A stretch of 64,000 bases of DNA. It comes from an uncultured Chlamydiae bacterium. Its GTDB lineage: Bacteria; Chlamydiota; Chlamydiia; Chlamydiales; SM23-39. How positions within the stretch are numbered: the first letter of the stretch is position 1; each line of letters opens with the position of its first letter. Both the position numbers and the translations under genes were made by a program. The notes below the pieces were generated by a model that saw nothing but the letters and a program-made list of their open reading frames with translations, ran no database searches and was not told the origin of the DNA. Positions 48,625-49,289 of the stretch are shown piece after piece. The stretch is taken from assembly GCA_963730605.1 (NCBI GenBank), contig CAVSSM010000001.1, positions 352,001-416,000 on the forward strand, written 5' to 3'.

Positions 48625-48663
48625 CTCGACTTTGTACATTTTTTGCCGGCATCTCCATAGAGA
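48625..48663. mobile_element. Distal end fragment of a CTCGACTTTGTACA MITE
   Basis: Matches the reverse complement of ~46114-46152. Confidence 0.85.
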
Positions 48664-48843
48664 CAGATTCAGTCGCTTCACAGTTTCCTGTATCGGTTGG
48701 TAACCTGACCTAGAATCTGTGATCTCCTTAATCCTTTCTTTCGCTCTTTTGAGAGCTTTCTTTGAGGCATGATACTGGCAATATTTCCGATTCGGATCCT
48801 TTTCGAACTGTTGCCATTCGGAAGACCCTTCGGTCCGTAGTAG
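48664..48843 (-). pseudogene. Group II intron RT/maturase (domain X) fragment
   Basis: HASKKALKRAKERIKEITDSRSGYQPIQETVKRLNL resembles the PSKK..K.KI.E.T...I..LN maturase pattern. Confidence 0.7.
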
Positions 48844-49008
48844 CTCGACTTTGTACAATTTTGTGGCGGCATCTCCGAGAGAATCGCTGGCAAATTTTTT
48901 ATTTCTCCGCTCATTAATAGCGCCTTCGGCTATGAATTTCGCGAAGAAATAAAAAATTTACAGAGCGCTTCCTCTAGATCTGCTCGCCAAAAATTGTACA
49001 AAGTCGAG
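48844..49008. mobile_element. Full 165-bp CTCGACTTTGTACA MITE inside the intron remnant
   Basis: Perfect terminal IR; homologous to 45988-46152. Confidence 0.9.
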
Positions 49009-49230
49009 AGTAGATGTTCCCATCAATCGGCTCTCCCATCTAATGTTGAAACTTACTCGTAACGAGGCTATCGGTTCACGGGTTCCCATTGTGGCTCATG
49101 CATTTGTCTGTTGAGGCTTCATCCCGAAAATTTCGTCTCAAGATGCTCAACTTCCTACACGTGTCACTCAATAATTCACATGACAGACACCTTTCATTCT
49201 GCTAGTTTAGCCAAGCTTCGCTTGGCGCAC
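49009..49230 (-). mobile_element. Group II intron 5' end (domain I fragment)
   Basis: Begins GTGCGCCAAGCGAAGCTTGGCTAAACTAGCAG (GUGYG consensus plus hairpin); same strand as the maturase fragment. Confidence 0.75.
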
Positions 49231-49289
49231 ACAAAGTCGAGATTTCCAAGTAACCGCCGTCCACTCAAGGAGATCCTGATAGAAGGGGT

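What the first reader, a model, noticed from the sequence alone, without database searches (positions are those of the whole stretch)
48625..49241. Group II intron inserted into the terminal repeat of a MITE (nested structure)
Seen on the minus strand, in order: CTCGACTTTGT (first 11 nt of the MITE TIR) joined directly to GTGCG, ~220 nt of intron-like RNA, a second full MITE of the same family, a maturase domain-X-like fragment, then the far end of the host MITE (48663-48625). Known: group IIC-attC introns insert after TTGT next to DNA hairpins. Inference: an intron lineage may use this multicopy palindromic element as its homing site.
Basis: partly seen in the sequence, partly recalled or inferred. 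Interest (0 to 1): 0.72.

Follow-up and report, generated by a model that had tools for sequence, protein, structure and literature searches.

The report
Dead intron relic in transposon end
This is the broken leftover of a self-splicing mobile intron that once jumped into the end of a small transposon in an environmental chlamydia-like bacterium and was later hit by another copy of that transposon; it is genomic debris of a known kind.

Summary
The sequence features are real. On the minus strand, the first 11 nt of an ISAs1-derived MITE/IS terminal repeat (49241-49231) abut GTGCG. After that come 176 nt of group II intron domain I (nhmmer E=7.6e-24), a short probable domain-IV/ORF-start piece, a complete 165-bp MITE with a perfect 5-bp duplication (CTACT), an RT7/domain-X fragment (E=6.4e-16), and the last 39 nt of a MITE.

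The intron is a dead relic. It has two internal deletions of about 320 and 940 nt and a 3' truncation. These removed EBS1, DII, DIII, most of the RT, DV and DVI.

The retained EBS2 position (CGAG) is complementary to TIR nt 1-4 (CTCG). That favours true reverse splicing into the transposon end, but the 3' junction is gone.

The homing-site inference is not supported:
- Three identical, intact 1934-nt introns of the same lineage in this genome sit in three unrelated non-MITE sites.
- Five relatives elsewhere are also in non-MITE sites.
- Only 1 of 64 TIR 11-mers carries an intron.
- The junction was not found in 400 other genomes of the order.

The lineage has EBS2-IBS2 pairing, so it is not IIC or IIC-attC.

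Verdict: an ordinary nested mobile-element graveyard, of low interest.

The parts
49231..49241 (-). First 11 nt (CTCGACTTTGT) of the terminal inverted repeat of the ISAs1-family IS / its 165-bp MITE. It now serves as the 5' exon of the intron relic. Nt 1-4 (CTCG, 49241-49238) are complementary to the relic's EBS2 position.
   Evidence: (64 genomic occurrences against ~1 expected; only this one followed by GTGCG).
49058..49230 (-). Group II intron relic, piece 1: domain I nt 1-176, beginning GTGCG. It includes the EBS2 position (CGAG, 49059-49056). The EBS1 loop and the rest of DI, DII and DIII are deleted after this piece.
   Evidence: nhmmer with a profile of 5 full-length introns: E=7.6e-24, model 1-176. 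67% identity over 175 nt to the intact intron of the same genome. Rfam RF02003 at 32.6 bits, below the gathering score of 49.
49009..49052 (-). Intron relic, piece 2 (left part): probable domain-IV / Shine-Dalgarno / RT start-codon region (about intron nt 499-540). Its last 5 nt (49013-49009, CTACT) are one copy of the MITE target-site duplication.
   Evidence: Pairwise alignments to 4 relatives all place it at the ORF start. nhmmer after removing the MITE in a script: model 499-548, E=0.28 at window scale, so weak on its own but collinear with the other pieces.
48844..49008 (-). Complete 165-bp MITE (non-autonomous derivative of the ISAs1-family IS), a near-perfect palindrome, inserted into the already deleted intron relic.
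   Evidence: 86-91% identity to the full-length (155-nt) matches among its 38 BLAST hits in the genome. Flanks of 27 matches of 140 nt or more were examined, two of them the element itself. Perfect 5-bp duplication CTACT/CTACT. Relatives read through the insertion point as CTACTACGG. DNA fold -54.6 kcal/mol, z=-12.
48826..48843 (-). Second copy of the duplication (48843-48839, CTACT), then the right part of intron piece 2 (ACGGACCGAAGGG, first codons of the RT ORF).
48664..48808 (-). Intron relic, piece 3: fragment of the RT gene (end of RT domain 7 and start of the maturase/X domain, ...HASKKALKRAKERIKEITDSRSGYQPIQETVKRLN). It is out of frame with piece 2.
   Evidence: nhmmer model 1492-~1640, E=6.4e-16. 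tblastn with the G023 RT, residues 333-405, E=4e-10. Best relatives are G023 at 55% over 42 aa, L099 at 49%, and the same-genome intron at 47%. Pfam GIIM E=0.041.
48625..48663 (-). Last 39 nt of a MITE of the variant subfamily, joined to the RT fragment at a TCT-type microhomology. Everything 3' of RLN in the intron (rest of X, DV, DVI, 3' exon) is missing.
   Evidence: Identical over 39 nt to the right end of the copy at 45988-46152. A Logan contig spans 48560-48684 with 0 differences.
45988..46152 (+). Nearby full MITE copy of the same variant subfamily as the 39-nt end (context only; not part of the nest).

Best explanation
The locus is a non-functional relic of a small group II intron. The intron has no endonuclease domain and carries an EBS2. 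It belongs to a lineage found in environmental chlamydiae.

Inferred order of events:
1. An active intron reverse-spliced once into DNA at ...AT-CTCGACTTTGT|ACAA..., between nt 11 and 12 of the terminal inverted repeat of an ISAs1-family IS or its 165-bp MITE. The site was recognised by base pairing (EBS2 CGAG with CTCG; EBS1 is lost).
2. The copy decayed. One deletion of about 320 nt joined DI nt ~180 to the DIV/ORF start. A second of about 940 nt removed most of the RT.
3. Another MITE copy transposed into the remnant, making the 5-bp duplication CTACT.
4. A further deletion or rearrangement joined the RT7/X fragment to the last 39 nt of a MITE, removing DV, DVI and the 3' junction.

Shown: the anatomy, the homology of pieces 1 and 3, the MITE insertion with its duplication, and that the intron's first nucleotide abuts TIR nt 11.

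Inferred: the reverse-splicing origin of the 5' junction, the order of steps 2 to 4, and that this was a one-off event rather than routine homing. The relic cannot splice or move and interrupts no gene.
For: Anatomy and significance.

The relatives are bona fide group II introns:
- RT matches TIGR04416 at 400.8 and 405.9 bits against a cutoff of 300.
- DV-DVI matches RF00029 at 46-54 bits against a gathering score of 40.

Precise 5' boundary: similarity to five relatives starts exactly at GTGCG, and the upstream sequences are unrelated.

The 11-mer is a transposon end, not chance: 64 occurrences against ~1 expected.

EBS-IBS logic of the lineage:
- EBS1 loop against 5' exon: G023 ACGATA/TATCGT, L009 CATTTC/GAAATG, G000 ATATGC/GCATAT.
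- The relic's EBS2 position CGAG is perfectly complementary to exon -11..-8 (CTCG). This is the same register as L007 and L099 (CAGG/CTTG) and L009 (ATTT/AAAT).

MITE insertion after the internal deletion: perfect duplication, and relatives read CTACTACGG across the site.

One-off character:
- Three 100%-identical intact copies sit at C1:286486-288419, C8:29771-31704 and C4:2-1935, with exons ...GCATAT...CCATGT and ...TCGTAT, none in a MITE.
- Only 1 of 64 TIR 11-mers is occupied.
- No RT of this lineage was found in the 5 same-genus genomes searched, including the two that hold the MITE, G001 and G003.
- The junction pattern was found in 0 of 400 other genomes of the order. Three hits with 2 mismatches were coding sequence, and the reversed control gave 5 hits.

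Literature (passages read): most bacterial intron copies are truncated and sit among other mobile DNAs (PMC4424553).
Against: - The 3' junction (intron end followed by TIR nt 12, ACAA...) is deleted, so insertion into the repeat is shown on one side only.
- EBS1 is deleted, so the IBS1 pairing (expected ACAAAG-like) cannot be checked.
- The EBS2 argument is only 4 bp. The fixed register fails for the G000 full-length intron (3 exons) and for G023, which pair only one position further upstream. Also, 6 of 54 non-cognate combinations reach 4 pairs.
- The outer flanks (GAAAT and GAGAG) show no duplication, whereas 18 of 23 MITE copies of 160-165 bp have a perfect one. The two MITE ends may therefore come from different copies.
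- Piece 2 is statistically weak on its own.
- No empty site was found in relatives.
- The relic is only 67% (RNA) and 47-55% (RT fragment) identical to its nearest relatives, so its parent is unknown. That parent's normal target is unknown too.
Confidence: 0.65

Rival explanations
1. True homing relationship: the extinct parent of the relic was tuned (EBS2 CGAG, EBS1 presumably ACAAAG) to the terminus of the ISAs1-family IS/MITE. It used this multicopy end as its regular homing site, as RmInt1 uses ISRm2011-2. All other occupied ends have since been lost, or lie in unsampled strains.
For: The relic's EBS2 position is perfectly complementary to TIR nt 1-4 at the register used by three relatives. 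The element offers 60 or more target ends per genome. An IS-resident homing site has a precedent (PMC5894124, passages read). The assembly is only 83% complete.
Against: - Only 1 of 64 ends is occupied.
- No other fragment of the lineage exists in the genome apart from three copies in non-MITE sites.
- No intron of this lineage is found in the same-genus genomes that carry the MITE. G001 has 23 matches to the query region (nearly all to its MITE part) and G003 has 3, but they are only 62% and 78% complete.
- The junction was not found in the 400 other genomes of the order.
- The 29-nt 5'-end pattern gave 15 metagenome loci, none preceded by the TIR.
- Two of the paired site positions (AT at -13/-12) lie outside the MITE.
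Confidence: 0.15
2. The 5' junction was not made by reverse splicing. The intron sat in some other site downstream of an IS/MITE copy. One of the deletions that shaped this locus then happened to join TIR nt 11 to intron nt 1, possibly through GT/TGT microhomology with the original exon end.
For: At least three other deletion joints exist within 600 bp. The 3' joint to the 39-nt MITE end shows a TCT-type microhomology. Relatives' exons end in ...CGT...TGT or ...TAT, which would allow 2-3 nt of ambiguity. There is no outer duplication.
Against: A deletion endpoint falling exactly (within 2-3 nt) on the splice site is improbable. It would also make the CGAG/CTCG complementarity at the lineage's IBS2 register a coincidence (about 1/256 for perfect pairing at a fixed register).
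Confidence: 0.12
3. Assembly artefact: the nest is a chimeric join of repeats in a metagenome-assembled genome.
For: The genome is MITE-rich and 83% complete, in 12 contigs. The 39-nt and 165-bp repeats could in principle act as pivots for a misjoin.
Against: The MITE and the intron share no sequence that could misjoin at an 11-nt partial end. The inner MITE has a matching duplication, and the intron pieces are collinear across it. Independent Logan contigs span 49219-49300, 49001-49151 and 48560-48684 with 0 differences, although possibly from the source sample. Identical 1.9-kb intron repeats are resolved inside long contigs.
Confidence: 0.02

Closest known systems
Truncated bacterial group II intron copies embedded in other mobile DNA (general pattern; Zimmerly & Semper 2015, PMC4424553, passages read)
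   Same: It is a fragmentary intron lacking the catalytic DV and an intact RT. It sits outside any housekeeping gene and is surrounded by IS/MITE sequences.
   Different: The 5' exon here is specifically nt 1-11 of a transposon terminal repeat, and the remnant itself carries a later MITE insertion. Search (28 papers held all three terms; I saw the titles and abstract starts of 15) showed no paper describing an intron in a MITE terminal repeat. That is a shallow search, not proof of absence.
RmInt1 of Sinorhizobium meliloti and its relic FRE652 (PMC5894124, passages read)
   Same: It is an intron without an endonuclease domain, with EBS1 and EBS2 recognition, found inside an insertion sequence. 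Occasional ectopic insertions occur at sites with similar IBS. Long-lived truncated remnants are known (FRE652 keeps DI-DIII and part of DIV).
   Different: RmInt1 occupies many copies of its IS (ISRm2011-2, IS630 family) at an internal site. Here a single end of an ISAs1-family element is occupied, and the active introns of the same genome sit elsewhere. The class relationship to RmInt1 was not tested.
Group IIC and IIC-attC introns (terminator / attC stem-loop targeting; PMC4424553 and PMC3753933, passages read)
   Same: The RT is small and lacks an endonuclease domain. The best solved-structure matches are IIC RTs (GsI-IIC 190.6 bits, E. rectale 180.7 bits, against TeI4h 155.9 and LtrA 141.2). 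Three of six examined copies of the lineage have a GC hairpin upstream. The target here is a palindromic element.
   Different: The lineage has an EBS2-IBS2 pairing and 4-6-bp EBS1-IBS1 pairings. Where hairpins exist, they end 13 nt before the splice site rather than abutting IBS1. The relic has no upstream hairpin, and the insertion point lies within the 5' arm of the MITE stem.
Small IIB-like bacterial classes (IIE/IIF; Nagy et al. 2013, PMC3753933, passages read)
   Same: The ribozyme is about 608 nt without the ORF (1934 nt minus 1326 nt), within the 450-700 nt quoted for IIE/IIF. EBS1 and EBS2 lie in domain I, with the IBS sites directly upstream of the splice site.
   Different: No phylogenetic or structural class assignment was made here. 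Rfam's best D1-D4 model for the full-length relatives is RF02005 (49.9 bits against a gathering score of 49). I cannot map that model to a class.
Bacterial MITEs derived from IS elements (e.g. the MITE swarms already noted in this genome, earlier finding e1-4677595)
   Same: The element is 165 bp, a near-perfect palindrome and non-coding. It shares its terminal repeats and 5-bp duplication with a 1417-bp ISAs1-family IS (NF033564, 357 bits). The genome holds 23 copies of 160-165 bp.
   Different: Nothing unusual, apart from one end serving as the landing site of an intron.

Membership tests
Group II intron (remnant of) | Canonical 5' end GUGYG and domain I homologous to known introns | tested here: met
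   GTGCG at 49230. nhmmer E=7.6e-24 to nt 1-176 of a profile of five full-length introns. Rfam RF02003 only 32.6 bits against a gathering score of 49.
Group II intron (remnant of) | Catalytic domain V / domain VI | tested here: not met
   Rfam found no RF00029 match in the window. The intron-profile search of the window and of the whole genome matched the relic only at model nt 1-176 and 1492-1670, so nothing corresponds to DV-DVI. The relic ends in the X domain. Relatives have DV-DVI at 46-54 bits against a gathering score of 40.
Group II intron (remnant of) | Intron-encoded RT/maturase in domain IV | tested here: inconclusive
   Only about 48 codons of RT7/X survive (tblastn E=4e-10; GIIM E=0.041), plus a probable start region in another frame. 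The intact relatives match TIGR04416 at 400.8 and 405.9 bits.
Group IIC / IIC-attC introns | No EBS2-IBS2 pairing; short EBS1 | tested here: not met
   EBS2-type 4-bp pairings at exon -11..-8 in L007, L099, L009 and the relic, and at -12..-9 in G000 and G023. EBS1 pairings of 6 bp in three introns. The pairings were read from sequence and not tested biochemically.
Group IIC / IIC-attC introns | Insertion immediately 3' of a DNA/RNA stem-loop (terminator or attC) | tested here: not met
   The relic's 60-nt 5' exon folds no better than shuffles (z=+1.16). L009 and G000-C1 also lack a hairpin. L007, L008 and G023 have one, ending 13 nt upstream. In the folded MITE, nt 11/12 lies inside the stem's 5' arm.
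Group IIC / IIC-attC introns | RT in the class C clade | not tested
   Only score ranks against solved structures are available: IIC RTs 190.6 and 180.7 bits, TeI4h 155.9, LtrA 141.2. No labelled reference set was on hand for a tree.
Homing-site relationship (intron lineage to MITE/IS end) | Several independent copies of the intron at the same position of the repeated element | tested here: not met
   1 of 64 TIR 11-mers is occupied. Three intact copies of the lineage sit in three other sites. The junction was found in 0 of 400 other genomes of the order. 0 of 15 metagenome loci have the TIR upstream.
Homing-site relationship (intron lineage to MITE/IS end) | EBS1/EBS2 complementary to the site | tested here: inconclusive
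   EBS2 position CGAG against CTCG is perfect. The EBS1 loop is deleted, so the decisive half cannot be read.
MITE of an ISAs1-family IS | Short non-coding element sharing terminal inverted repeats and duplication length with an autonomous IS; multicopy | tested here: met
   165 bp. TIR CTCGACTTTGTACAATTTT is shared with the 1417-bp element at C1:446919-448335, whose 373-aa transposase matches NF033564 at 357 bits against a cutoff of 70. 5-bp duplications are perfect in 18 of 23 copies of 160-165 bp.

The most novel reading that the evidence does not exclude
The relic descends from an intron variant whose exon-binding sites were tuned to the terminal repeat of the ISAs1-family IS/MITE (EBS2 CGAG with CTCG; lost EBS1 with CTTTGT). 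Such a variant would home into transposon ends and split their terminal repeat, acting as a parasite, and possibly an inactivator, of the genome's most abundant transposon. The relic would be the last trace of that extinct interaction.
Probability: 0.15. Interest if true: 0.45.

Novelty: new member of a known kind. Interest (0 to 1): 0.2.

Why it matters
Little, in itself. It is one more decayed bacterial group II intron lying among other mobile DNA, as is typical for bacteria.

Its modest value is as a readable record of successive events in an environmental chlamydia: intron insertion into a transposon end, deletions, then a MITE insertion.

It also led to an apparently active 1934-nt intron without an endonuclease domain in the same genome (three identical copies), whose EBS1 and EBS2 can be read against their targets. 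If the homing reading were true, it would add an IS-terminus-specific intron to the RmInt1/ISRm2011-2 precedent.

Tried and rejected
- Rfam at gathering threshold found nothing in the region. Only a sub-threshold D1-D4 hit appeared at E-value threshold.
- BLAST of the 222-nt piece and the RT fragment against the genome found only themselves. The three intact relatives were found only by tblastn and profile search.
- My first placement of the relic's 'EBS1' (GATTGA, GATGGG) was wrong. That stretch is the Shine-Dalgarno/start region of the RT ORF.
- Empty-site search: the flanks 47800-49600 searched in five same-genus genomes gave only MITE copies and a match to the toxin-antitoxin genes, and no orthologous unoccupied site.
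- The upstream InsA-like stub ORF and the 50 nt before the TIR are unique in the genome, so they give no context for a duplication test.
- G002 holds a different, unrelated, degraded group II intron, not the relic's lineage.
- Three 2-mismatch matches to the junction pattern in other genomes are coding sequence. The reversed-pattern control gave 5 hits.
- Sequencing runs: no run held half or more of the words (best share 0.19). X3 and X4 cover only the inner MITE, with other flanks. Parts of the stretch without cover in X1 and X2 say nothing.
- Literature searches gave no paper on an intron in a MITE terminal repeat, on native chlamydial group II introns, or on start-codon targeting (listings only).
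- The search of earlier findings had nothing near this place.

Full report
**Observation**

Read on the minus strand, the locus runs in this order:
- unique flank ...GGAAAT
- CTCGACTTTGT (49241-49231)
- GTGCGCCAAG... (from 49230)
- a full 165-bp palindromic element (49008-48844)
- an ORF fragment ...HASKKALKRAKERIKEITDSRSGYQPIQETVKRLN
- 39 nt ending ...TGTACAAAGTCGAG (48663-48625)
- unique flank GAGAG...

The window is G000:C1:352001-416000 of a 2.2-Mb, 12-contig assembly that is 83% complete. The closest intron relatives come from MAGs titled Chlamydiales, Chlamydiae or Verrucomicrobiota. Earlier notes of this scan call the genome an uncultured chlamydia-like bacterium rich in MITEs.

**The repeated element**

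- The 165-bp element gave 38 BLAST hits in the genome.
- A search for its terminal repeats found 23 paired copies of 160-165 bp. 18 of these have a perfect 5-bp target duplication.
- As single-stranded DNA it folds into one long hairpin (-54.6 kcal/mol, z=-12).
- It shares its terminal repeat (CTCGACTTTGTACAATTTT) and 5-bp duplication with a 1417-bp element at C1:446919-448335. That element's 373-aa transposase matches the ISAs1 family (NF033564, 357 bits against a cutoff of 70). The element is therefore a MITE of an ISAs1-family IS.
- The 11-mer CTCGACTTTGT occurs 64 times on both strands, against about 1 expected. 59 occurrences continue ACAA or ACAT, and only the one at 49241 continues GTGCG. 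The 11 nt in front of the intron are a real transposon terminus.

**The intron relic**

Rfam gives only a sub-threshold hit (RF02003, 32.6 bits against 49). Related full-length introns settle the identity.

- A relative in G023 has a 440-aa RT (TIGR04416 400.8 bits; RVT_1 and GIIM domains) and DV-DVI (RF00029 46.1 bits against 40).
- Three more relatives came from species-representative genomes (L007, L008, L009; RT 67, 64 and 60% identical to G023).
- One came from a metagenome (L099).
- The window's own genome holds three intact copies, found only by tblastn. They lie at C1:286486-288419, C8:29771-31704 and C4:2-1935. They are 100% identical over 1934-1935 nt, with a 442-aa RT (TIGR04416 405.9 bits).

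A DNA profile of five full-length introns matches the window in two places:
- 49230-49058 matches nt 1-176 (E=7.6e-24).
- 48808-~48664 matches nt 1492-~1640 (E=6.4e-16).

After the inner MITE and one duplication copy are removed in a script, the stretch between them (49052-49009 plus 48838-48826) aligns to nt 499-548. This is the Shine-Dalgarno/start region of the RT ORF. The match is weak on its own (E=0.28 at window scale). However, it is collinear with the other pieces and was found against each of four relatives separately.

The relic is thus DI nt 1-~180, about 55 nt of DIV, and about 145 nt of RT7/X. It has deletions of about 320 and 940 nt. It lacks the EBS1 loop, DII, DIII, most of the RT, DV and DVI. 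It cannot splice or move.

It belongs to the chlamydial lineage but is divergent:
- 67% identity to the same-genome intron over 175 nt.
- The RT fragment is 55% identical to G023, 49% to L099 and 47% to the same-genome RT.

**The inner MITE**

It is flanked by CTACT on both sides. With the MITE removed the sequence reads ...ATCTACTACGGACC..., where relatives read ...AACTACTACGGAAC.... The MITE therefore inserted into an intron remnant that had already lost its middle.

**How the 5' junction arose**

Similarity to all relatives begins exactly at GTGCG, and the upstream sequences are unrelated to one another. This is what reverse splicing gives.

The lineage recognises its 5' exon by base pairing. 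The loop about 8 nt before GGTGAARCC covaries with the last exon nucleotides:
- G023: ACGATA / TATCGT
- L009: CATTTC / GAAATG
- G000: ATATGC / GCATAT, with CCATGT and TCGTAT at the other two copies
- L007: GGAT / ATCC
- L008: GGATA / TATCC

The first four nucleotides after CCTCGTYA pair with exon -11..-8 in L007 and L099 (CAGG/CTTG) and in L009 (ATTT/AAAT). The relic keeps this position. It reads CGAG, and exon -11..-8 is CTCG, which is TIR nt 1-4. This favours real recognition of the transposon end.

Caveats on this point:
- It is only 4 bp.
- The fixed register fails for the G000 intron (three exons) and for G023, which pair one position upstream.
- L008 reaches 3 of 4 pairs.
- 6 of 54 non-cognate combinations also reach 4 pairs.
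- I chose the register after seeing the data.
- The 3' junction is gone, so insertion into the repeat is documented on one side only.

**The 'far end of the host MITE'**

The 39 nt are identical to the right end of the variant copy at 45988-46152. They join the RT fragment at a TCT-type microhomology. The outer flanks (GAAAT and GAGAG) show no duplication, which is the minority condition among copies (5 of 23). The two ends may belong to one host element or to two. I cannot tell.

**Is the MITE a homing site?**

The evidence says no, or at least not for any lineage now present:
- The three intact introns of the same genome are in three different non-MITE sites.
- The other relatives (G023, L007, L008, L009, L099) are in unrelated sites.
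- A genome-wide profile search finds only the three intact copies and the relic.
- Two same-genus genomes carry the MITE (G001 with 23 matches to the query region, nearly all to its MITE part; G003 with 3) but show no RT of this lineage. They are 62% and 78% complete.
- The junction pattern, allowing 2 mismatches, found no intron junction in 400 other genomes of the order. The three hits are coding sequence, and the reversed control gave 5 hits.
- The 29-nt 5'-end pattern found 15 metagenome loci, none preceded by the TIR.

**Is it IIC-attC-like?**

No.
- IIC introns lack EBS2 and target stem-loops (PMC3753933 and PMC4424553, passages read). This lineage has EBS2-type pairings.
- The relic's 5' exon has no hairpin (z=+1.16).
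- Only 3 of 6 examined copies have one, and there it ends 13 nt upstream.
- In the folded MITE, nt 11/12 lies inside the stem.

The ribozyme is about 608 nt without the ORF, within the range quoted for IIE/IIF (PMC3753933). The RT has no endonuclease domain and scores best against IIC RTs among solved structures (190.6 and 180.7 bits, against 155.9 and 141.2). I did not assign a class.

**Known parallels**

- Most bacterial intron copies are truncated and lie among other mobile DNAs (PMC4424553, passages read).
- RmInt1 has its natural homing site inside an IS. It makes occasional ectopic insertions at sites with similar IBS and leaves long-lived fragments such as FRE652 (PMC5894124, passages read).
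- A search for papers combining 'group II intron', 'MITE' and 'inserted' returned 28 papers. I saw only the listing of 15, and none describes an intron in a MITE terminal repeat.

**Assembly check**

Logan contigs of runs X1 and X2 (one study) span 49219-49300, 49001-49151 and 48560-48684 with 0 differences. They may come from the sample that gave the genome, so they are not independent support.

**Verdict**

The nesting is real. The homing and IIC-attC interpretation is not supported. The locus is a dead intron relic in a transposon end, in an intergenic stretch. That stretch lies between a stub ORF with an InsA-like zinc ribbon (E=0.001, below cutoff) and a ParD/Doc-type gene pair. Interest is low.

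Noticed in passing
G000:C1:286486-288419, C8:29771-31704, C4:2-1935 (outside the window; L115 holds the C1 copy): Three 100%-identical, intact 1934-nt group II introns (442-aa RT without endonuclease domain, TIGR04416 405.9 bits). They look recently active. The EBS1 loop ATATGC faces exons GCATAT, CCATGT and TCGTAT. EBS2 GATA(A) faces (T)TATC.
   Followed up: partly
L100-L113 (one metagenome co-assembly, contig ends): Fourteen copies of a related intron each begin directly after an ATG (12) or GTG (2) that is preceded by a purine-rich Shine-Dalgarno-like stretch. 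It looks as if this sub-lineage targets translation start sites. Only 20-50 nt of each intron are on the contigs, so the EBS could not be read. One literature search (listing only) showed nothing on this.
   Followed up: partly
L007 (around 124-151 and just after 2080); L009 (around 2416-2431 and about 10 nt after 4363): The last 28 nt (L007, 26 of 28 identical) and 15 nt (L009) of the 5' exon recur 2 and 10 nt downstream of the 3' splice site. Local scores are 24 and 15, against a maximum of 12 in 42 non-cognate exon pairs. The other five copies score 4-7. Unexplained: a tandem target, or a duplication made at insertion.
   Followed up: partly
L007, L008, L003 (G023) 5' exons: A GC-rich hairpin ends 13 nt before the 5' splice site in 3 of 6 examined copies (z -2.0, -3.15, -3.2). 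The relic, L009 and G000-C1 have none. L007, L008, L099 and G000-C1 share an exon motif ATC(T/C)TG... at -13..-8.
   Followed up: partly
G000:C9:161428-161449 and C2:69113-69134: 22-bp mini-palindromes made only of the two 11-nt outer halves of the terminal repeats (CTCGACTTTGTACAAAGTCGAG). One has a 5-bp duplication (GTAAT). They probably arose by deletion between the 8-bp TTGTACAA cores of the two repeats.
   Followed up: no
G000:C1:446919-448335 (L114): Autonomous 1417-bp ISAs1-family IS with the same terminal repeats and a 5-bp duplication (ATAGA). It is the likely source of transposase for the 165-bp MITEs. A shorter 1182-bp derivative lies at C3:22954-24135.
   Followed up: yes
window 49551-49700: A second, unrelated palindromic repeat family of about 150 bp, with about 7 copies at 94-97% identity in the genome.
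   Followed up: no
window 49194-49391 (-): Stub ORF beginning MECKCPSCSSTQVKKNGHIHN, an InsA-type zinc-ribbon start (Pfam E=0.001, below cutoff). It is unique in the genome, apparently the remains of another transposase gene.
   Followed up: partly
window 47849-48474 (-): ParD-type antitoxin (82 aa, PF09386, 30.2 bits) followed by a Fic/Doc-family protein (126 aa, PF02661, 71.9 bits). This is a toxin-antitoxin-like pair directly downstream of the nest.
   Followed up: no
L004 2884-3046 (G023): A palindromic element of about 160 nt from a different family lies about 50 nt downstream of the G023 intron's 3' end. It matched several miRNA-precursor models on both strands, below gathering score.
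   Followed up: no
G023 5' exon (L005) and G000:C4 upstream of 1935: Runs of short AACGAT-type repeats lie 30-90 nt upstream of two intron copies in different genomes. Seen by eye, and not tested.
   Followed up: no
window 51011-51117 (+) and 1213-1284 (-): TPP riboswitch (65.8 bits) and a tRNA (59.3 bits), both above Rfam gathering scores.
   Followed up: no
runs X3, X4 laid on window 48844-49009: Copies of this exact MITE variant (1 difference) occur with other flanks in a freshwater and a soil metagenome. Within G000 the variant is only 86-91% identical to the other copies.
   Followed up: no
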